A DNA stretch of 64,000 nt. Source: an uncultured Planctomycetia bacterium (GTDB taxonomy: Bacteria > Omnitrophota > Gorgyraeia > Tantalellales > Tantalellaceae). The stretch is taken from positions 75,366-139,365 of the forward strand of contig CAZGQR010000003.1 of the NCBI GenBank assembly GCA_964527765.1, in the 5' to 3' direction. The position numbers and the translations under genes were made by a program. Positions 13,253 through 56,439 of this stretch are shown in pieces; position 1 is the stretch's first letter, and the number at the start of each line of letters is the position of its first letter. The notes beneath the pieces are model-generated. The model saw only the letters and a program-made list of their open reading frames with translations, ran no database searches and was not told the DNA's origin.

Positions 13253-13329
13253 GGCGGGGCGGACGGGGCTCGAACCCGCGACCTTCGGATCGACAGTCCG
13301 ACGTTCTAAACCAACTGAACTACCGCCCC
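13253..13329 (-). tRNA. tRNA-Asp (GTC)
   Basis: Cloverleaf folded by hand. Anticodon loop cuGUCga, T-loop TTCGAGC, encoded CCA. Confidence 0.8.
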
Positions 13330-13415
13330 TTTGAGCGTGTGTTTATTTATAACACAGAACACCTGGCGCGTCAATCGCTCCGTAACGCATCGGCCGAGAG
13401 TCCGAATTTCAATAG

Positions 13416-13493
13416 TGGTGGGCGATGTAGGATTCGAACCTACGACATCTACCTTGTAAGGGTAGCGCTCTAAACCAGCTGAGCTAATCGCCC
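13416..13493 (-). tRNA. tRNA-Val (TAC)
   Basis: Cloverleaf folded by hand. Anticodon loop cuUACaa, T-loop TTCGAAT, encoded CCA. Confidence 0.8.
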
Positions 13494-16097: not shown

Positions 16098-16175
16098 TGG
16101 CGTCCCCAAGGGGATTCGAACCCCTGTCGACAGATCGAAAATCTGTTGTCCTAGGCCAGGCTAGACGATGGGGAC
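16098..16175 (-). tRNA. tRNA-Glu (TTC)
   Basis: Cloverleaf folded by hand. Anticodon loop uuUUCga, T-loop TTCGAAT, CCA encoded. A hairpin plus T-tract lies downstream on the minus strand (~15990-16050). Confidence 0.8.
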
Positions 16176-21663: not shown

Positions 21664-21667
<4 letters not shown>

Positions 21668-22767
21668 GCCGCCAGCTGCATAGGCAGCACCACGTAGGTG
21701 TATTCCTCTCCGTGCCGCACTACTCCCGGCTTGTTGGAATCGTTGACCTCAAAAACAATTTTCTCGTCCGACAGGTTTTTCAGGACATCTATAAGGTATC
21801 GGGGGTTAAACCCTATTTCTACGTCCGGCCCCCCTTTATATTCCACGTCTATCTCCTCTTTTGCCTCTCCGAGATAAGGGGTGTTTTTGGAAATGGTCAT
21901 TTTCTTTTTCTTTATATTAAGCTTGATCGCCATGGAGTCCTGGTCCGTGAAAATACTGGCTCTTCGCGCGGCGGATAAGAACTCTTCTCTGGGTATTTGT
22001 ACTTCCTTCGGCGACCTTTCGGGGATGACGTTCCTGTAGTTGGGGTATTCCCCTTCTATCAGCCTGGACAGGACGAAGCTGTTCTCAAAAGAGAACAGGA
22101 CCTGGTTGTCGCTGAACTTGATCTGCACTTCACCTTCATCCCGCAGCATCCTTTTTACTTCCTGAACTGTTTTGGTCGGGATAATGGCGTCCCTGTCCAC
22201 AAGCGTCTTTTTTGAAAGACGTTTCTTGACCAGCGCCAGCCTTCTGCCGTCTGTCGCCACCACGGATATTTGATCTCCCTTTACGCTGAGCAGTACGCCG
22301 TTCAACACAAACCGGGTGTCGTCTTTACTGATGGCGAAATCCGTGAGGTTCAGCATTTCCCTTAAGATGCTCTGTTTGATGGTAATGGAATCTTTGTCTT
22401 TGAAGGCCGGTAGTTGGGGAAATTCCTCTTGAGGCAGGCCGATTATCTTGAAAAGGGCTTTTCCGCTTTTTATTATCACAAAGTTGTTTTTTTTCATAGA
22501 AAGGTCCACGTCGCTTCCGTCCGGAAGGGCTTTGATGATGTCAAAGAATTTTCTTGCCGGTATCGTTGTCGCTCCCGCCTGTTGGGTTGTAATAGGTATC
22601 GTCGCGCATATCCCTATATCAAGGTCCGTGGCCGTTAATTTTAGATTGTTGCCTTCCACCTCAAGCAAGACATTGTTTAAAATAGGAAGGCTGCTTTTGG
22701 GGGATATTGCGTTTTGGACGATCTGGATACCTTCCATTAAGGTGTCTTTTGTTGTTTTTATTTCCAT
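21664..22767 (-). CDS. dnaN: DNA polymerase III beta sliding clamp
   Basis: 367 aa with three clamp-domain repeats, immediately downstream of dnaA. Confidence 0.9.
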
Positions 22768-22931: not shown

Positions 22932-24341
22932 TTATTTTCTTATAAGCGCAGTAAGCTTTTCTATAACGCTTTTTGTTTTTTTGTTTTCTTCGATCTCCCT
23001 GCTTATTTTATCACAAGCATGGAGCACCGTTGTGTGGTCTCTCCCCCCGAAGAAACCACCGATATCCGGCAGGGAATAATCCGTCATTTCCCGCGAAAGG
23101 TACATGGCAAGCTGCCGGGGGTATACTATGGCGCGCGTCCTCTTTTTTGTTTTCATGTCAGGTTCTTTGATGTCAAAAAAGCCCGCGACGACCTTTTGTA
23201 TCAGATCAACGGTTATCTTCTTCTCCTCGGCCGCCAACATGCCCCGGAGGACCTCTTTAGCAAGGGCGACCGTTATTTCCTGTCCTGTAAGTTTTGCGTA
23301 CGCGACGACACGGATAAGGGCCCCCTCCATTTCCCGGATGTTTGTCCGTATGTTCTCCGCGAGAAAATACAGGACCTCCTTGGGAACCTTTACAGATTCA
23401 TTCTCGCTCTTTTTTTCCATGATGGCTATCCGCGTTTCAAAGTCAGGCAGCTGTATATCGGCGATCAGGCCCCAGGCGAACCTGGACACCAGGCGCTCCT
23501 CGAGACCCTGTATTTCCTGGGGGGACCGGTCGCTGGAAAGGACGATCTGTTTGTGCGCGTCATGCAGCGCGTTGAACGTATGAAAGAACTCCTCCTGCGT
23601 GGACTCCTTTCCGGCAATGAACTGGATATCGTCTATAAGAAGGATATCGACGTTTCTGTATCTGGCGCGGAACTTCGGCGTGGCCTTGGTCCGTATGGCG
23701 TGTATCAGCTGGTTGGTAAATTCCTCGCTTGACATGTACAAGACCCGGGCCTTTGGATGCCCTTTCAGGATCTCCTGTCCCATGGCCTGCATCAGGTGGG
23801 TCTTGCCCAGGCCGACCCCGCCGTACAGGAACAGCGGATTGTAAACCTTGGAAAGCTTTTCACAGACAGCCAGCGCCGCAGCGTGCGCGAAGCGGTTGCT
23901 CCCCCCGACAACAAAATTGTCGAAAGTGTAGTTGGGGTTGAGCCCCAGTTCCCGGTGGCGGCTTTCCGGCACCTGCCGCGTGCTGCTGAACACGGACTTC
24001 AACCATCCGACCGACTGTTCTTTATCCTTGGCTTCCGCGGGAACGGCCGGGGAGGAAGCGCGCCTTTCCCCGCCGCCGTCTTTTGCGTCGCTCTCGGAGG
24101 GCTCTTCAACGATCTCGAACTTTACCAGCAGACTTTTCCCGGAAGCCTGCTGAAGTGCCGTCTTTACCAGGCTTATATATTTTTCCCGGATCCAGCTCTC
24201 AAAGAATTTATTAGGGACTCCGAGGGTGATGGACTTGCTGTCCAGAGAAACCTGTGTTATAGGAAGGAACCAGGCATTAAAAATCTGGTCGTTCACTTCA
24301 GACTGAAGAATGGATAAGGCCTTTTTCCAGATATTTTCCAT
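22932..24341 (-). CDS. dnaA: chromosomal replication initiator DnaA
   Basis: AAA+ motif GGVGLGKTHL and the C-terminal DNA-binding helix. 469 aa. Confidence 0.95.
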   Translation of the reverse strand: MENIWKKALSILQSEVNDQIFNAWFLPITQVSLDSKSITLGVPNKFFESWIREKYISLVKTALQQASGKSLLVKFEIVEEPSESDAKDGGGERRASSPAVPAEAKDKEQSVGWLKSVFSSTRQVPESRHRELGLNPNYTFDNFVVGGSNRFAHAAALAVCEKLSKVYNPLFLYGGVGLGKTHLMQAMGQEILKGHPKARVLYMSSEEFTNQLIHAIRTKATPKFRARYRNVDILLIDDIQFIAGKESTQEEFFHTFNALHDAHKQIVLSSDRSPQEIQGLEERLVSRFAWGLIADIQLPDFETRIAIMEKKSENESVKVPKEVLYFLAENIRTNIREMEGALIRVVAYAKLTGQEITVALAKEVLRGMLAAEEKKITVDLIQKVVAGFFDIKEPDMKTKKRTRAIVYPRQLAMYLSREMTDYSLPDIGGFFGGRDHTTVLHACDKISREIEENKKTKSVIEKLTALIRK

Positions 24342-25341: not shown

Positions 25342-26964
25342 ATGGAAAAAAGGATGATCATAGCGATAGCGTTATCTTTGTTGGTCCTGCTGGGCTTTCA
25401 AGGGCTGGTCGCCAAAAGACACGCGCGTGTCCAGGTCGCGACCCCGGCTCCCTCCATGGGGGCGCCTGCCGGAACGGCTGAGAGGCCTCCCGCCGGCGAG
25501 ACCGCGATCCCGGCGGCAAAGTCCCGACAGGTTCCTGCCGGGGAAACCCTGGAAGAAAACATTACGGAGATCCGAACGGAGCTCTATGCGCTCGCCTTTT
25601 CCGATATGGGCGGGAGCCTGAGGAAACTGTCCTTGAACGAATATCGGAAACAGGACGAGGAAGAAGTTCTTTATGATGAGGAGAACCCGGCGGAAAGGCT
25701 CTTTGCCATGCGGAGCGAGCTTTCCCCGGGGTTAGAAAACAGGAAATTCGAATTGTTCAAAACAAGCGGGACGCTGGAATACAAGCTAACTGATCCGGGC
25801 TGGCTAGAGATAACGAAACGGTACACTTTTCACAAGTCTTTTGGTTATATCGACTTAGAGGTTTTCGCCAAAAACCTTTCGCCACGCAGAATCGTTTTTT
25901 CATATCAGATCGTAGGCCCTTCCGGGCTGGAAAGATCGGATCACATCGCCGGGAGAAGCTTTTTACAGGCGGATACGATGATAGACGGCAAGCTCTGGAA
26001 AATAAAATCTGTGAAGGGAGTGCAGGAGAGAACCGGGGACATATCCTGGACAGCGCTTAAGAACAGATACTTTGCGCTGATGCTCAAGCCATTCAACGCG
26101 CCCAGATCCGTGGCAATAACACAAACCGGGGACAAAAACTTTTTAATCGCCCTGAACAGCCGGACCTGCGAGCTGGAACCCGGGACGGAAACTGAAGACC
26201 GGTACCTGCTGTATGCGGGGCCTTTGGATGAGGAAAGAATCGCGGCAGCCGGCTATGATATGCAGAAGGTAGTGGATTACGGCTTTTTCGGGGGGGTCAG
26301 CAAGGCGCTGCTCTCTGTGTTACGCTTTTTCCACAAGTGGGCGCACAACTGGGGGGTGGCGATAATCCTTCTTACCATCCTGATCAATGCCGTCTTGTTC
26401 CCGCTCACGGTCAAGAGTTTTTCTTCGATGCAGCAAATGAAAACAATTCAGCCGCACATACAAAAACTGAAGGAGCTCCACAAAGATAACCCGCAGAAAC
26501 TCAACAAGGAGATGATGGAGCTATATAAGAAATACAACGTAAACCCTCTTGGCGGATGCCTGCCGCTGCTTTTGCAGATGCCCATATTTATAGCTCTTTA
26601 CCAGGGCCTCATGCGGTCCGTTGAGCTGAAAGGGGCGCAGTTTCTGTGGATAAAGGATCTGGCGAAGCCGGATGCGGTCCCCCTCCCGTTTTCTTTGCCG
26701 GTTATCGGCACGAATATAAACATTTTGCCGCTTCTTATGGTAGGCGTTATGATGTTACAGCAGAAGATCTCTCAGGGGGCTGCAGCCGGGACGATGACAA
26801 GCGAACAAGCCAGTCAGCAGAAAATGATGATGATGGCCATGCCTCTGCTTTTCGGCGTCCTTTTTTACAAGATGCCGGCGGGGTTGGTTCTTTACTGGCT
26901 GACGAACACGATCCTGATGACTGCGGAACAGAGTCTTATCAGCAAGCGCATAAGCAGAAATTAA
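25342..26964 (+). CDS. yidC: membrane protein insertase YidC
   Basis: 540 aa. N-terminal TM plus periplasmic domain, and a C-terminal 60 kDa-IMP core (NPLGGCLPLLLQMPIF). Confidence 0.9.
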   Translation: MEKRMIIAIALSLLVLLGFQGLVAKRHARVQVATPAPSMGAPAGTAERPPAGETAIPAAKSRQVPAGETLEENITEIRTELYALAFSDMGGSLRKLSLNEYRKQDEEEVLYDEENPAERLFAMRSELSPGLENRKFELFKTSGTLEYKLTDPGWLEITKRYTFHKSFGYIDLEVFAKNLSPRRIVFSYQIVGPSGLERSDHIAGRSFLQADTMIDGKLWKIKSVKGVQERTGDISWTALKNRYFALMLKPFNAPRSVAITQTGDKNFLIALNSRTCELEPGTETEDRYLLYAGPLDEERIAAAGYDMQKVVDYGFFGGVSKALLSVLRFFHKWAHNWGVAIILLTILINAVLFPLTVKSFSSMQQMKTIQPHIQKLKELHKDNPQKLNKEMMELYKKYNVNPLGGCLPLLLQMPIFIALYQGLMRSVELKGAQFLWIKDLAKPDAVPLPFSLPVIGTNINILPLLMVGVMMLQQKISQGAAAGTMTSEQASQQKMMMMAMPLLFGVLFYKMPAGLVLYWLTNTILMTAEQSLISKRISRN

Positions 26965-26971
26965 GGCCGCC

Positions 26972-27172
26972 ATGAAAAAAGCAAAGCTCACTAAAACCAT
27001 AGAAGTAGAAGCTACCACCAGAGAAGAAGCTATTCGAAAAGCGCTCAAGACATTAGATGCCCACAGAGAAGATGTGACCATAAGGGTTATCCAGGAAGAA
27101 AGTAAAGGCCTTTTTGGCATGGAAGGCGCCAAACCCGCCAAAGTAAAAGTCACCCTCAAATCCCACAAATAA
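26972..27172 (+). CDS. Jag_N-domain-only protein (KhpB/Jag N-terminal domain; KH and R3H domains absent)
   Basis: 66 aa. ...EEAIRKALKTLDAHREDVTIRVIQEESKGLFGMEGAKPAKVKV matches the Jag N-terminal domain. Sits at the usual jag position after yidC. Confidence 0.55.
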   Translation: MKKAKLTKTIEVEATTREEAIRKALKTLDAHREDVTIRVIQEESKGLFGMEGAKPAKVKVTLKSHK

Positions 27173-27215: not shown

Positions 27216-27292
27216 GGACCGTTTGTCATGCTCCTACCAGGGCCCCTCCGCCCGGTGTGGATCCTCCCTGTACGGAGCATGACAAACGGTCC
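27216..27292. repeat. perfect 19-bp inverted repeat (GGACCGTTTGTCATGCTCC / GGAGCATGACAAACGGTCC) with a 39-nt loop
   Basis: Arms at 27216-27234 and 27274-27292. No T-tract follows. Confidence 0.8.
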
Positions 27293-27301
27293 AACCGCTG
27301 G

Positions 27302-27325
27302 CTACCTTGGTTTCCACGTGGAAAC
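27302..27325. promoter_or_regulatory. parS-like 16-bp palindrome GTTTCCACGTGGAAAC (copy 1, 5' flank CCTTGG)
   Basis: Perfect palindrome. It equals the parS consensus tGTTTCACGTGAAACa with one extra base in each half-site. Confidence 0.5.
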
Positions 27326-27385
27326 TTTTACTTTAATGCACCATTATTCCGGACCGGAAAAACATCAACTATTTTGCCCCTGCCC

Positions 27386-27414
27386 TTGACTTTGTGAAAA
27401 TCATGTGCTATATT
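27386..27414 (+). promoter_or_regulatory. sigma70-type promoter for parAB
   Basis: TTGACT, 17-nt spacer, TATATT. Confidence 0.5.
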
Positions 27415-27457
27415 TTTTGCAAATAAAAAGTTTCACCCGCACAGTTGATCAAAGATA

Positions 27458-27478
27458 TTTCCACGTGGAAACCAAGAG
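27458..27478. promoter_or_regulatory. parS-like palindrome TTTCCACGTGGAAACC (copy 2, 3' flank CCAAGAGG, inverted relative to copy 1)
   Basis: Same 16-bp core with the mirrored flank. Lies between the promoter and the parA start. Confidence 0.5.
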
Positions 27479-27496: not shown

Positions 27497-28315
27497 ATGA
27501 AAAAAATAGCTTTCTGTAATCAAAAAGGCGGTGTGGCAAAAACGACGTCGGCCTTAAATATTGCTGCGTACCTCGCCTTGAATGGCAAAAAAACCCTTCT
27601 GATCGACCTGGACCCTCAGGCTAACGCCACCAGCGGACTCGGCATCAATAAAGACGAAATACGACACAGCATTTATAATGTTCTCCATGAACACATCGGG
27701 CTGGATGAGGCCATCAAACCTACCGAGATCGACCTCCTGTCAGTGCTCCCCTCAAACATAAATTTGACCGGGGCGGAAGTTGAATTGGTAAATGTTATGG
27801 GCAGAGAGTACCGTCTCAAAAAAGCCGTGCAGGAGGTGCAAGGGAGTTTCGAGTTTATAATCTTTGACTGCCCGCCCTCCTTGGGCCTTTTGACGATAAA
27901 CGGGCTGACCGCAGCGAATTCGGTGATCATCCCCATTCAGTGCGAATACTACGCGCTCGAGGGGTTGAGCCAATTGATCAAGACAGTAAATCTCGTCCGG
28001 GAGAATCTCAACGGAAAACTGGAGATAGAAGGTGTTTTAATGACGTTGGCGGACTACCGGACAAATTTGACGAAAGAAGTCATAGGTGAAGTCAAACAGT
28101 ATTTTGGCGACAAGGTATATAAGTCTATAATCCCGCGGACAATAAAGCTTACAGAAGCCCCGGGGTTTGGAAAACCGATAGCTCTTTATGCAAAAGATTC
28201 GGTTGGCGCAAAAAAATATGAGGAAGTGACCCGGGAGATCCTCAAGCTCCCACTAAAAACAGAACCCATTGAAAATGAAGGAGTTACAACAAATATGGAG
28301 GAAAGTTATGGATAA
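27497..28315 (+). CDS. parA: chromosome partitioning ATPase ParA/Soj
   Basis: Deviant Walker A (NQKGGVAKTT), 272 aa. Confidence 0.9.
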   Translation: MKKIAFCNQKGGVAKTTSALNIAAYLALNGKKTLLIDLDPQANATSGLGINKDEIRHSIYNVLHEHIGLDEAIKPTEIDLLSVLPSNINLTGAEVELVNVMGREYRLKKAVQEVQGSFEFIIFDCPPSLGLLTINGLTAANSVIIPIQCEYYALEGLSQLIKTVNLVRENLNGKLEIEGVLMTLADYRTNLTKEVIGEVKQYFGDKVYKSIIPRTIKLTEAPGFGKPIALYAKDSVGAKKYEEVTREILKLPLKTEPIENEGVTTNMEESYG

Positions 28316-29141
28316 AAGACTGGGGAAAGGATTAGACGCTCTTATTTCGGAAGATGTCAGTAAAGGCAAAGAAAAGGTTGAAAAAATCAGAACATCAGAG
28401 ATCGCGCCCAATCCCCTTCAACCAAGAAAAAGGTTCAGCGAAGAAAAAATGGACGAACTTATTTGTTCCATACGGGAAAAAGGAGTCATCCAGCCGGTGT
28501 TGCTCAGGCCCACAGGAGGAGGATACGAGCTTGTTGCGGGGGAACGGCGCTGGCGGGCCGCGCAAAAACTGCAGATCGAAGAAGTTCCCGCCATAATAAG
28601 AGACGACATAGACGACGCCAACAGCCTGGAGATCTCGCTTATTGAAAACATCCAGAGAGAAGAGCTGAACCCCATAGAAGAAGCGAATGCTTATCAGGAA
28701 TTGATCGGCCAGTTTGAATATACGCTGGACAAGGTCGGGCAGATGATGGGAAAGGACAAAACAACGGTTTCCAACAGCCTGCGGCTGTTGACCCTCCCGG
28801 AGGAGATACAGAACTATGTTGAAGAGGGGAAGATCTCTGCCGGCCACGCTAAGGCCATCCTGTCCATCACCAGCGAACAGAAGAGGAAAAAAATCGCCAA
28901 AACAATAATGCGAAAAGGAATTTCCGTCCGGGAAACGGAACAGCTGGTGCGTAAGCTTACGGAATCGAAACCGAAGCTGAAAAGAACGAAGGAACCCGAA
29001 ATAGCGCAGATCGAAGAGGCCTTGCAGCACAAACTTGGCACAAAAGTGACCGTTCACAAAGGGCAAAAAAGGGGGCGCATCGAGATCCAGTATTTTTCCA
29101 ATGAAGACCTTCAGCGTTTATTGCGGCTGATCCTTCAGTAG
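28308..29141 (+). CDS. parB: chromosome partitioning protein ParB/Spo0J
   Basis: Start placed at MDKRLGKGLDALI, which has a GGAGG RBS 8 nt upstream. ParB box GERRWRAA. The track ORF's upstream ATG has no RBS. Confidence 0.9.
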   Translation: MDKRLGKGLDALISEDVSKGKEKVEKIRTSEIAPNPLQPRKRFSEEKMDELICSIREKGVIQPVLLRPTGGGYELVAGERRWRAAQKLQIEEVPAIIRDDIDDANSLEISLIENIQREELNPIEEANAYQELIGQFEYTLDKVGQMMGKDKTTVSNSLRLLTLPEEIQNYVEEGKISAGHAKAILSITSEQKRKKIAKTIMRKGISVRETEQLVRKLTESKPKLKRTKEPEIAQIEEALQHKLGTKVTVHKGQKRGRIEIQYFSNEDLQRLLRLILQ

Positions 29142-47600: not shown

Positions 47601-47674
47601 GGCGCGGTGGCCGAGCAGATAGGCAGCGGTCTGCAAAACCGCGTACACCGGTGCGAATCCGGTCCGCGCCTCCA
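47601..47674 (+). tRNA. tRNA-Cys (GCA)
   Basis: Cloverleaf folded by hand. Anticodon loop cuGCAaa, CCA encoded. Promoter TTGACA-17-TAATTT upstream. Confidence 0.8.
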
Positions 47675-47743
47675 GATTCTTGCGAAGCAGTGTTTTTCCG
47701 CAGATGCGGCGAATAGGGGCCTCGGAGAGGATGCTTAAAAGGT

Positions 47744-47831
47744 GGGCGAGTGGCGGAATTGGCAGACGCAAAGGACTTAAAATCCTTCGGTTGAATAAAC
47801 CATGAGGGTTCGAGTCCCTCCTTGCCCACCA
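47744..47831 (+). tRNA. tRNA-Leu (TAA)
   Basis: Long variable arm, anticodon loop cuUAAaa, CCA encoded. Confidence 0.8.
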
Positions 47832-47911
47832 TGCCGATACTGGAAGGTTGCATAGGAACACAAAAGGTGTCATAATATAGATTAATATTTTAGCCGGAAG
47901 AATAATACGGT

Positions 47912-47988
47912 GGGCGGTTAGCTCAGATGGTTAGAGCGCCACGTTGACATCGTGGAGGTCACTGGTTCGATCCCAGTATCGCCCACCA
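47912..47988 (+). tRNA. tRNA-Val (GAC)
   Basis: Anticodon loop uuGACau, T-loop TTCGATC, CCA encoded. Confidence 0.8.
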
Positions 47989-56175: not shown

Positions 56176-56407
56176 AATTGTTCTTGATCCGGTTTTTATT
56201 GCAATGAATTCCATTGCGCCCGCCCCGCGGGTGGTGATATAATAAATCCGTTACGATCTGTTTGACTCGTGAAGCGGGTTTATCGAATTGGGCCAACACT
56301 ATAGAACTGGGAGCCTAGCTCTGGCATTCTCTCGGGATTGTCAGGAGGGCACCCACCTGGACTACCAGGACACCAATTCTTTTCCTGCGCACGGTCTGAC
56401 GGATTTG

Positions 56408-56439
56408 GGGCCGGATTCATATCCGGCCCTAATTTTTCT
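56408..56439 (+). terminator. strong intrinsic terminator (GGGCCGGAT-tcat-ATCCGGCCC then TAATTTTTCT) about 20 nt upstream of the rarA start
   Basis: Perfect 9-bp GC-rich stem with a 4-nt loop and a T-tract. Confidence 0.65.

What the first reader, a model, noticed from the sequence alone, without database searches (positions are those of the whole stretch)
27302..27478. Pair of inverted parS-like palindromes (GTTTCCACGTGGAAAC) bracketing the parAB promoter
Two copies of a perfect 16-bp palindrome lie about 150 bp apart, one upstream and one downstream of the TTGACT-17-TATATT promoter. Their flanks are mirrored (CCTTGG... / ...CCAAGAGG). The sequence equals the canonical parS GTTTCACGTGAAAC with one extra C/G inserted in each half-site, so it is a lineage-specific parS variant. 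The motif occurs nowhere else in the 64 kb, and no canonical parS is present.
Basis: partly seen in the sequence, partly recalled or inferred. Interest (0 to 1): 0.55.

Follow-up and report, generated by a model that had tools for sequence, protein, structure and literature searches.

The report
Variant 16-bp parS centromere in Omnitrophota
The two palindromes in front of the parAB genes are very probably this bacterium's chromosome-segregation "centromere" sites, in a phylum-wide variant that is one base longer per half than the near-universal bacterial parS and that goes with a change in the ParB residue that normally reads the outer base.

Summary
Copy 1 (27310-27325) is the perfect palindrome GTTTCCACGTGGAAAC. 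Copy 2 (27457-27472) is ATTTCCACGTGGAAAC, a 15/16 match. They flank a promoter that is conserved in relatives, lie 3 kb from dnaA, and nothing similar or canonical occurs elsewhere in the 64 kb.

The window is the origin region of a Candidatus Omnitrophota genome. In 10 of 10 genomes chosen only by ParB homology, and about 30 more found by motif, the same 16-mer sits in the jagN-parA spacer in 1-5 copies. Exactly 16 bp are conserved, and no canonical parS is present. The nearest relatives with the same gene order carry canonical parS in that same spacer.

ParB covaries with the site. The residue equivalent to Caulobacter R173, which contacts the outer guanine of parS, is K in 120 of 120 close homologues and in every ParB found next to the 16-mer. 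It is R in 80 of 80 ParBs from the outgroup loci, none of which has the 16-mer. A sister clade with V at this position has CTTTCCACGTGGAAAG instead.

Best reading: a functional parS variant co-evolved with ParB. ParB binding was not tested. It is a new variant of a known kind, and I found no description of it in the searchable literature.

The parts
27310..27325 (.). parS-like site 1: GTTTCCACGTGGAAAC, a perfect 16-bp palindrome, about 60 bp upstream of the -35 hexamer
   Evidence: the same 16-mer is in the same spacer in relatives
27457..27472 (.). parS-like site 2: ATTTCCACGTGGAAAC (15/16; one outer G is A), in the predicted 5'UTR of parA, ending 25 bp before the parA ATG
   Evidence: a 5'UTR copy also exists in L081, L082, L206 and L207
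27386..27414 (+). parAB promoter: TTGACT, 17-bp spacer, TG-extended TATATT
   Evidence: the pattern cTTGACtT-N14-aTrTGyTATAtT is visible in the 10 spacers printed (read by eye; L081's contig starts inside the promoter, so its -35 is not seen)
27497..28315 (+). parA (Soj-type Walker ATPase, 272 aa)
   Evidence: Pfam AAA_31 5.5e-67, CbiA, MipZ
28308..29141 (+). parB (277 aa) with ParB_N, HTH_ParB and ParB_C domains. The GERRWRAA and ENIQRE boxes are intact. The DNA-contact positions are L140 (Caulobacter Q162), K151 (R173) and K182 (R204).
28758..28760 (+). Codon of ParB K151, the position equivalent to Caulobacter R173, which contacts the outer guanine of the parS half-site
   Evidence: alignment to 6T1F, numbering from PMC7383237, translation; K in 120/120 close homologues
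26972..27172 (+). Jag_N-only gene (66 aa), the upstream boundary of the conserved spacer that holds the sites
   Evidence: synteny
27216..27292 (.). Very stable 77-nt hairpin directly upstream of site 1. It is a neighbour of the sites, and I do not show that it is part of the centromere.
   Evidence: -52.8 kcal/mol, z = -7.95; its core is 98-100% identical in L082 and L144; no Rfam family

Best explanation
The two palindromes are the chromosomal centromere (parS) sites of this Omnitrophota genome.

Proposed mechanism:
- Dimers of the adjacent ParB recognise them through the helix-turn-helix domain, load as CTP-dependent clamps and spread. Together with ParA they segregate the origin region, which starts 3 kb away at dnaA.
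- The site is a phylum-wide variant with an 8-nt half-site, GTTTYCAC, in place of the near-universal 7-nt core GTTNCAC. The specificity-determining outer guanine therefore lies one base pair further from the dyad.
- ParB has changed at the residue that reads that guanine in canonical ParB (R173 to K; K151 here).
- One site lies upstream of the conserved parAB promoter and one lies in its 5'UTR, so ParB loading may also dampen parAB transcription. That arrangement is not conserved, so this is probably secondary.

Shown: conservation of the site, its position, its exclusivity in the window, the intact ParB and ParA domains, and the residue-site covariation.
Inferred: ParB binding, clamp loading, and which base K151 contacts.
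For: 1. The site is real and exclusive. There is one exact and one 15/16 copy, with nothing else within 3 mismatches in 64 kb and no canonical parS.
2. The location is origin-proximal. The order is dnaN-dnaA, then rnpA-yidD-yidC-jagN-[sites]-parA-parB, and the GC-skew minimum is at about 24 kb.
3. An unbiased comparison supports it. All 10 genomes chosen by ParB homology alone (66-100% identity) have the motif in the jagN-parA spacer. In 34 half-sites the counts are G32 T33 T34 T34 C33 C34 A34 C34, with unconserved flanks. None has GTTNCACGTGNAAC.
4. The genome-collection scan recovered about 35 more Omnitrophota-type stretches. Wherever parA lies in the fetched stretch, the site is 27-425 bp upstream of its start. 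The remaining stretches end at yidC/jagN, the other edge of the same spacer.
5. Canonical parS takes the same position elsewhere. In 31 of 80 outgroup ParB loci it is often present as a pair just upstream of parA. In the nearest R-type relatives with identical synteny (L002, L003, L004) it lies in the same jagN-parA spacer.
6. ParB covaries with the site. R173 contacts guanine 1 and is invariant in parS-specific ParB variants (PMC7383237). The equivalent residue is K in the window, in 120/120 close homologues and in all 25 ParBs found beside the 16-mer. It is R in 80/80 outgroup loci and in 143 of the next 149 cluster representatives.
7. There is a third state. The Omnitrophota clade around Ca. 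Taenaricola has V or other small residues at this position. Its locus has a single CACGTG palindrome, aCTTTCCACGTGGAAAGt, in which only the outer base is changed.
8. There is a partly independent case. L190, titled Elusimicrobiales, has different synteny and a ParB only 41% identical. It again combines K with GTTTCCACGTGGAAAC and GTTTTCACGTGAAAAC upstream of parA.
9. ParB is otherwise canonical: all three Pfam domains are present and the GERRWRAA box is intact.
Against: - No binding data exist, and the organism is uncultivated.
- The covariation rests on few evolutionary events: one main K clade, L190, and one V-clade locus. The large counts are therefore not independent.
Extra sites elsewhere in these genomes cannot be excluded, and copy number relative to oriC could not be plotted.
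- Lysine is shorter than arginine, so it is not obvious how K151 would reach a guanine one base pair further out. The contact is conjecture.
- Very divergent ParB-like proteins next to the same 16-mer on other elements (L124, L181) have R at the aligned position.
- Site 1 also matches a crude terminator pattern.
Confidence: 0.82

Rival explanations
1. The palindromes are primarily an operator. ParB, or another dimeric regulator that recognises CACGTG-centred palindromes, binds on both sides of the promoter to repress parAB, and the sites have no centromere role.
For: In the window the sites lie about 60 bp upstream of the -35 and in the 5'UTR. A 5'UTR copy recurs in 5 of 10 relatives. Plasmid par operons are commonly autoregulated (PMC7022226).
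Against: The position relative to the promoter is not conserved. Both sites are upstream in L084, L205 and L208. There is a single upstream site in L083 and L209. In L212 the site is inside the end of yidC. Covariation with the ParB DNA-reading residue points to ParB rather than another factor. Chromosomal parS pairs occupy the same place in many phyla. Autoregulation and centromere function are not mutually exclusive.
Confidence: 0.1
2. The palindromes are RNA or DNA hairpins with a structural role. Site 1 would be the intrinsic terminator of yidC-jagN, or the pair would be the terminal inverted repeats of a small mobile cassette that carries the promoter.
For: The terminator scan flags 27309-27326 followed by TTTTACTTT. 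The 19-nt inverted arms bracket a 133-bp segment, as MITE ends would. In a 28% GC genome (SI.B36) the same 16-mer is often flanked by A-runs and T-runs.
Against: The hairpins are weak: -7.7 kcal/mol (z = -1.3) and -3.8 kcal/mol (z = +0.4). Site 2 and most orthologous sites lack a T-run, and the flanks are unconserved. A terminator would not need an invariant 16-nt sequence. Copy number and arrangement differ between genomes while the 16 bp stay identical. This rival also leaves the ParB residue covariation unexplained.
Confidence: 0.04
3. The resemblance to parS is coincidental. The sites serve origin biology through another protein, for example DnaA (the half-site TTTCCAC resembles the DnaA box TTATCCACA) or an unidentified nucleoid protein.
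For: The sites are 3 kb from dnaA. In L190 they are interleaved with TTATCCACA boxes.
Against: The sites track parA rather than the dnaA-rpmH spacer in every genome. In my own hand alignment only 6 of 9 positions match the DnaA box, and the conserved outer G and central CGTG are not DnaA-box features. The covariation is with ParB.
Confidence: 0.03

Closest known systems
Canonical chromosomal ParABS: Spo0J/ParB with parS TGTTNCACGTGAAACA (B. subtilis, Caulobacter, T. thermophilus, M. xanthus)
   Same: The operon is parA-parB and it is origin-proximal. ParB has ParB_N with GERRxRA, an HTH domain and a C-terminal dimerisation domain. It matches solved ParBs at E-values of 4e-56 to 1e-48 and aligns without gaps across the DNA-contact segment (Q162-R204, Caulobacter numbering). 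The sites are CACGTG-centred palindromes in the spacer upstream of parA. The inner bases (T)TYCAC are identical when counted from the dyad.
   Different: The conserved element is 16 bp with an 8-nt half-site, GTTTYCAC. The outer G is one bp further from the dyad, or equivalently one base is inserted per half. The flanking T/A of the canonical 16-mer is not conserved. The ParB contact residues are changed: R173 to K in all members, and Q162 to L and R204 to K in the window's subclade. Only 1-5 sites are seen, all in one spacer.
Noc and its NBS site (ATTTCCCGGGAAAT) in Firmicutes
   Same: It is a precedent for a natural change of specificity within the ParB family. That change maps to residue 173 (R to Q), which reads the outer base of the half-site (G to A), helped by permissive changes at 179 and 184 (PMC7383237). 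Here the same residue changes together with the outer part of the site.
   Different: Noc is a paralogue with a different job (nucleoid occlusion) and many dispersed sites. Here the sole, parA-linked ParB has changed, the central CACGTG is kept, and the half-site length differs.
Replicon-specific parS variants of secondary chromosomes and plasmids (V. cholerae ParB2/parS2; Burkholderia multi-replicon ParB/parS sets). This comparison is from my own knowledge and was not tested here.
   Same: They are diverged ParB/parS pairs with private palindromes that avoid cross-talk.
   Different: Those are extra replicons with distant ParB families. Here it is the primary, dnaA-linked system of a whole phylum, and its ParB is a close orthologue of canonical Spo0J.

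Membership tests
Chromosomal ParABS partition system | ParB with an N-terminal CTPase domain (GERRxRA box), a central HTH and a C-terminal dimerisation domain | tested here: met
   Pfam ParB_N 5.6e-33, HTH_ParB 5.8e-37, ParB_C 2.5e-10. AGERRWRAA and ENIQRE align to solved ParBs.
Chromosomal ParABS partition system | An adjacent Soj/ParA Walker-type ATPase in the same operon | tested here: met
   AAA_31 5.5e-67, CbiA, MipZ. parA overlaps parB by 8 nt.
Chromosomal ParABS partition system | Palindromic sites clustered near oriC or the par operon | tested here: met
   The sites are 3 kb from dnaA at the GC-skew minimum. All Omnitrophota hits lie in the yidC/jagN-parA spacer.
Chromosomal ParABS partition system | The site matches the canonical consensus TGTTNCACGTGAAACA (14-bp core GTTNCACGTGNAAC) | tested here: not met
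   The best canonical match in the window has 3 mismatches. The conserved element is GTTTCCACGTGGAAAC. No canonical core occurs in about 40 Omnitrophota loci.
Chromosomal ParABS partition system | Arginine at the guanine-1 contact (Caulobacter R173), invariant in parS-specific ParB | tested here: not met
   K151 in the window. K in 120/120 close homologues. R in 80/80 outgroup ParBs.
Chromosomal ParABS partition system | ParB binds the sites, loads as a CTP clamp and spreads | not testable with these tools
   This needs EMSA or BLI, CTPase or crosslinking assays, or ChIP-seq.
Noc/NBS nucleoid-occlusion system | A second ParB paralogue with Q173, K179, K184 and R201, an N-terminal membrane-targeting helix, and dispersed ATTTCCCGGGAAAT sites | tested here: not met
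   The residues are K151, S157, T162 and G179. The gene is the parA-linked orthologue. The central CACGTG is retained. There are only two sites in 64 kb.

The most novel reading that the evidence does not exclude
There is a second, widespread chromosomal centromere code: an 8-nt half-site GTTTYCAC read by ParB with lysine in place of the otherwise near-universal R173. It would be used by the main Omnitrophota clade, by at least one Elusimicrobia-labelled lineage, and probably by Kiritimatiellia. In Kiritimatiellia, 2-6 exact copies are hidden in frame (as V-S-T-W-K) inside a variable insertion in mnmG, a few kb from dnaA. A sister Omnitrophota clade has lost the basic residue and changed the outer base again. 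This would give a natural three-state series (R, K, small residue) for studying how a centromere and its reader co-evolve, including a change in half-site length that must alter the geometry of ParB clamp loading.
Probability: 0.4. Interest if true: 0.7.

Novelty: new variant of a known kind. Interest (0 to 1): 0.55.

Why it matters
Chromosomal parS is one of the most conserved cis-elements in bacteria, and ParB R173 is treated as invariant for reading it. A whole phylum in which the primary centromere has moved its key guanine by one base pair, and ParB has changed that same residue, has several uses.

- It is a natural experiment on protein-DNA co-evolution that complements the ParB-to-Noc work.
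- It offers an orthogonal ParB/parS pair for DNA-labelling tools.
- It warns that consensus-based parS or oriC annotation will miss centromeres in uncultivated phyla.
- The low site number (1-5, all in one spacer) suggests how such a switch could happen without losing segregation.

Tried and rejected
- The metagenome scan with a ParB alignment returned only distant ParBs (39-49% identity), because the patterns it chose were the universal ParB boxes. I used these loci as the canonical outgroup instead.
- The genome-collection scan for the 16-mer stopped at 120 rows. Per-genome counts and a plot against oriC were therefore impossible.
- I tried to reach a Kiritimatiellia ParB through mnmG neighbours. 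No parAB lies within 10 kb, so K versus R in that lineage stays unknown.
- Rfam found nothing in the spacer.
- The terminator reading is rejected on weak folding energies and unconserved T-runs.
- The mobile-cassette reading of the 19-nt inverted arms is rejected because the flanks and the arrangement differ between genomes.
- Very divergent ParB-like proteins next to the 16-mer on other elements (L124, L181, L129) gave no consistent residue pattern and were not used.
- Literature searches for the 16-mer, the 14-mer and parS with Omnitrophota found nothing relevant. Livny et al. 2007 was not held.
- My promoter regular expression failed. Promoter conservation was read from the printed sequences.

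Full report
**What is in the window.** Copy 1 (27310-27325) is the perfect palindrome GTTTCCACGTGGAAAC. Copy 2 (27457-27472) is ATTTCCACGTGGAAAC, a 15/16 match whose inner 14 bp are palindromic. The two copies are the cores of 19-nt inverted arms, CTTGGTTTCCACGTGGAAA and TTTCCACGTGGAAACCAAG, which are 100% complementary. Between them lies TTGACT-17-TATATT with a TG extension, at 27386-27414. No other match with up to 3 mismatches exists in the 64 kb, and shuffles give a mean of 0.31 at that tolerance. The best match to canonical TGTTTCACGTGAAACA has 3 mismatches, which is chance level. The observation therefore stands, except that only one copy is a perfect 16-bp palindrome.

**Context.** The window is a chromosomal origin region. 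It contains dnaN (21664-22767, minus strand) and dnaA (22932-24341, minus strand). On the plus strand follow rnpA, yidD, yidC (25342-26964), a 66-aa Jag_N-only gene (26972-27172), the sites, parA (27497-28315), parB (28308-29141), and pyrR, pyrB and pyrC. The cumulative GC-skew minimum is near 24 kb. The ParB homologues that carry a source name are labelled Candidatus Omnitrophota. ParB has the ParB_N, HTH_ParB and ParB_C domains and an intact GERRWRAA box. ParA is a Soj-type ATPase.

**Conservation in an unbiased sample.** I fetched nine loci chosen only because they encode ParB homologues 66-87% identical to the window's.
- All nine share the yidC-jagN-parA-parB synteny.
- All nine carry the motif in the jagN-parA spacer.
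- Together with the window there are 17 sites. The 34 half-sites read G32 T33 T34 T34 C33 C34 A34 C34, and the four flanking positions are unconserved.
- The selected element is therefore exactly 16 bp, including the outer G/C.
- None of these loci has the canonical core GTTNCACGTGNAAC.

The promoter pattern cTTGACtT-N14-aTrTGyTATAtT is visible in the ten spacers (L081's contig starts inside the promoter, so its -35 is not seen). The site arrangement around it varies. One site upstream plus one in the 5'UTR occurs in the window, L082, L206 and L207. Two upstream sites occur in L084, L205 and L208. A single upstream site occurs in L083 and L209. Bracketing the promoter is therefore not the conserved feature.

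- About 35 stretches are Omnitrophota-type. Some are titled 'uncultured Planctomycetia', but their DnaA and DnaN are 50-76% identical to the window's.
- Wherever parA lies in the fetched stretch, the site is 27-425 bp upstream of its start, in 1-5 copies. The other stretches end at yidC/jagN, the opposite edge of the same spacer. No canonical parS occurs in any of these 8-kb stretches.
- A more divergent member, L089, uses GTTTCCACGTGAAAAC and GTTTTCACGTGAAAAC. The half-site is therefore GTTTYCAC.
- No Omnitrophota hit lay outside this spacer. Because the scan was truncated, extra sites elsewhere cannot be excluded.

**Positional orthology with canonical parS.** Eighty outgroup ParB loci, 39-49% identical and obtained from the metagenome scan, contain no TTTCCACGTGGAAA. 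Thirty-one of them contain the canonical core, often as a pair just upstream of parA. The nearest R-type relatives, L002, L003 and L004, have the same yidC-jagN-parA-parB order. They carry GTTTCACGTGAAAC-type sites in the same jagN-parA spacer. The 16-mer thus occupies the slot that canonical parS occupies in sister lineages.

**Covariation with ParB.** Jalal et al. (PMC7383237) showed which Caulobacter ParB residues contact parS: Q162, G170, K171, S172, R173, N178, G201 and R204. R173 reads guanine 1 of the half-site G1TTTCAC, and it is invariant in parS-specific variants. Noc reads adenine there with Q173. Aligning the window ParB to chain 6T1F (chain index plus 10 gives the paper's numbering) yields these equivalences.

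| Window ParB | Caulobacter ParB |
|---|---|
| L140 | Q162 |
| K151 | R173 |
| N156 | N178 |
| G179 | G201 |
| K182 | R204 |

The residue at the R173 position distributes as follows.

| Set of ParBs | Residue at the R173 position |
|---|---|
| 25 ParBs encoded beside a variant site | K in all 25 |
| 80 outgroup ParBs | R in all 80 |
| 120 closest homologues | K in all 120 |
| Next 149 representatives of 50%-identity clusters (from 1.84 billion proteins) | R 143, K 4, H 1, V 1 |

Q162L is confined to the window's subclade and a few others. R204K also occurs in canonical ParBs, so K at the R173 position is the discriminating change.

**A third state.** The V-bearing representative is ParB of Ca. 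Taenaricola geysiri, titled Omnitrophica CG1_02_43_210. Its clade shows V, H, S, P, A, N, T or G at this position. Its locus, L212, has the same synteny. The only CACGTG palindrome in its 12.9 kb is aCTTTCCACGTGGAAAGt, at the 3' end of yidC. The inner 14 bp are identical to the window's site and the outer base has changed from G to C. This is the pattern expected if the residue at position 173 reads the outermost base of the 16-mer.

**A partly independent case.** L190 is titled Elusimicrobiales. It has different synteny (lepB is upstream, and DnaA boxes are interleaved with the sites). Its ParB is 41% identical to the window's and falls outside the main K clade in a rough neighbour-joining tree. 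It again pairs K with GTTTCCACGTGGAAAC and GTTTTCACGTGAAAAC upstream of parA.

**Mechanism.** The most likely reading is that these are functional parS sites at which ParB dimers bind and load as CTP clamps. Two descriptions of the variant are equivalent in sequence.
- Insertion view: one base is inserted per half-site next to the degenerate N position. This would move the two DNA-binding domains 2 bp further apart.
- Dyad-register view: counted from the dyad, only the outer dinucleotide changes, from TG to GT. The domains would then keep their places, and only the outer-base contact would be re-specified.

The data cannot separate these views. Both place the change at the base read by residue 173. 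Because Omnitrophota carry only 1-5 sites in one spacer, a joint switch of site and reader seems evolutionarily feasible. This last point is my inference.

**Rival explanations.**
- A pure operator role is unlikely, because the position relative to the promoter varies. Some autoregulation by ParB bound in the 5'UTR remains possible.
- A terminator or hairpin role is unlikely. The fold energies are -7.7 kcal/mol (z = -1.3) and -3.8 kcal/mol (z = +0.4), T-runs are not conserved, and a hairpin would not need 16 invariant bases.
- A mobile-cassette reading of the mirrored arms is contradicted by the unconserved flanks.
- A DnaA-box reading is contradicted because the sites follow parA rather than the dnaA-rpmH spacer.

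**Limits.**
- There are no binding data.
- The covariation reflects few evolutionary events.
- The genome-wide distribution was not obtained.
- The contact made by K151 is conjecture.
- Literature searches for the motif, and for parS in Omnitrophota, found nothing relevant. The review PMC7022226 describes chromosomal parS as highly conserved, 'mainly TGTTNCACGTGAAACA'.

**Verdict.** This is a real, conserved cis-element. It is very probably the parS of this lineage, in a variant form that co-evolved with the guanine-reading residue of ParB. It is a new variant of a known kind, of moderate to good interest for the ParB field.

Noticed in passing
window 27216-27292; L082 5006-5055 and 1968-2012; L144 654-706: A very stable 77-nt hairpin (-52.8 kcal/mol, z = -7.95) lies just upstream of site 1. 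Its central ~50 nt (CTCCTACCAGGGCCCCTCCGCCCGGTGTGGATCCTCCCTGTACGGAG) are 98-100% identical in two genomes whose ParB is only 78-79% identical. There it appears in either orientation, in the jagN-parA spacer and also in the dnaA-rpmH spacer. The outer stem differs in sequence but stays paired. It matches no Rfam family. It may be a mobile or structured element associated with the origin region.
   Followed up: partly
L177 7299-7896; L146; L149; L151; L210 10796 and 11126; L211 10736-11354: In MAGs titled Kiritimatiellae or Lentisphaerae, 1-6 exact copies of GTTTCCACGTGGAAAC lie inside a variable in-frame insertion in mnmG (gidA), a few kb from dnaA in L149, L151 and L210. The insertion sits between PPYFSLRT and APWPxN. 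MnmG is 705-965 aa in these homologues. Every copy is in frame 0 and is read as V-S-T-W-K, while the surrounding insertion sequence is unconserved. This looks like centromere-like sites embedded in a coding insertion. No parAB lies within 10 kb, so the ParB type is unknown.
   Followed up: partly
L212 4679-4694 (also L213, L214); proteins P0286, P0398-P0417: The Omnitrophota clade around Ca. Taenaricola geysiri has small, variable residues (V, H, S, P, A, N, T, G) at the R173 position of ParB. Its locus has a single aCTTTCCACGTGGAAAGt palindrome inside the 3' end of yidC, and no site in the jagN-parA spacer.
   Followed up: partly
L087, L090, L101, L106, L109, L119, L134, L150, L157, L158, L165-L167, L186, L187, L195, L199 (assembly CASFZN01): An 'uncultured bacterium' genome with 26-30% GC (SI.B36.metabat-bins.38) has at least 18 exact copies of the 50%-GC 16-mer. 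Fourteen of 18 are intergenic, and many are flanked by A-runs and T-runs. On one contig they spread over about 280 kb around a dnaA-like gene. They could be dispersed parS-like or NBS-like sites, or a species-specific bidirectional terminator. This is unresolved.
   Followed up: partly
L129 5971-6277: A Planctomycetota MAG contig has four exact copies of the 16-mer directly upstream of a ParA-like gene and a ParB-like gene, next to a phage-type integrase. This suggests a mobile-element partition locus that uses the same palindrome. Clusters also occur in Burkholderia sp. Ac-20353 (L194, 4 copies) and beside a KfrA-like gene in a Burkholderiales MAG (L154).
   Followed up: partly
L206 1082-1690: The jagN-parA spacer of this relative holds about seven tandem ~75-nt repeats, each starting gtcGGTTTCtctacgc. 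Two units carry the full 16-mer instead, one on each side of the promoter.
   Followed up: no
L094/L184, L096, L114, L170: In several fetched Omnitrophota stretches the site lies within about 30-210 nt of the start of the stretch. For L094, L114 and L184 that start is also the start of the contig, and L094 and L184 come from the same MAG. Assemblies may therefore break between repeated copies of the palindrome. L096 and L170 are internal 8-kb blocks, so their position says nothing about assembly.
   Followed up: no
L001 2690-3160: The closest R-type relative has only degenerate site-like sequences (AGTTCCCCGTGGAAAAGTTTCCACTGGAAC) in the spacer, followed by an inserted open reading frame (translating ...NPWYVTGFCDGES...). 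From memory this looks like a homing-endonuclease gene. It was not tested.
   Followed up: no
L190 (reverse strand) 2700-2900: In the Elusimicrobiales-titled MAG the parS-like sites are interleaved with perfect DnaA boxes (TTATCCACA). oriC and the centromere appear to share one spacer upstream of parA.
   Followed up: no
window 56252-56409; 13255-13493; 16101-16175; 47601-47985: The Rfam gathering-threshold scan finds a 6S RNA (51.8 bits) and six tRNA genes in the window.
   Followed up: no
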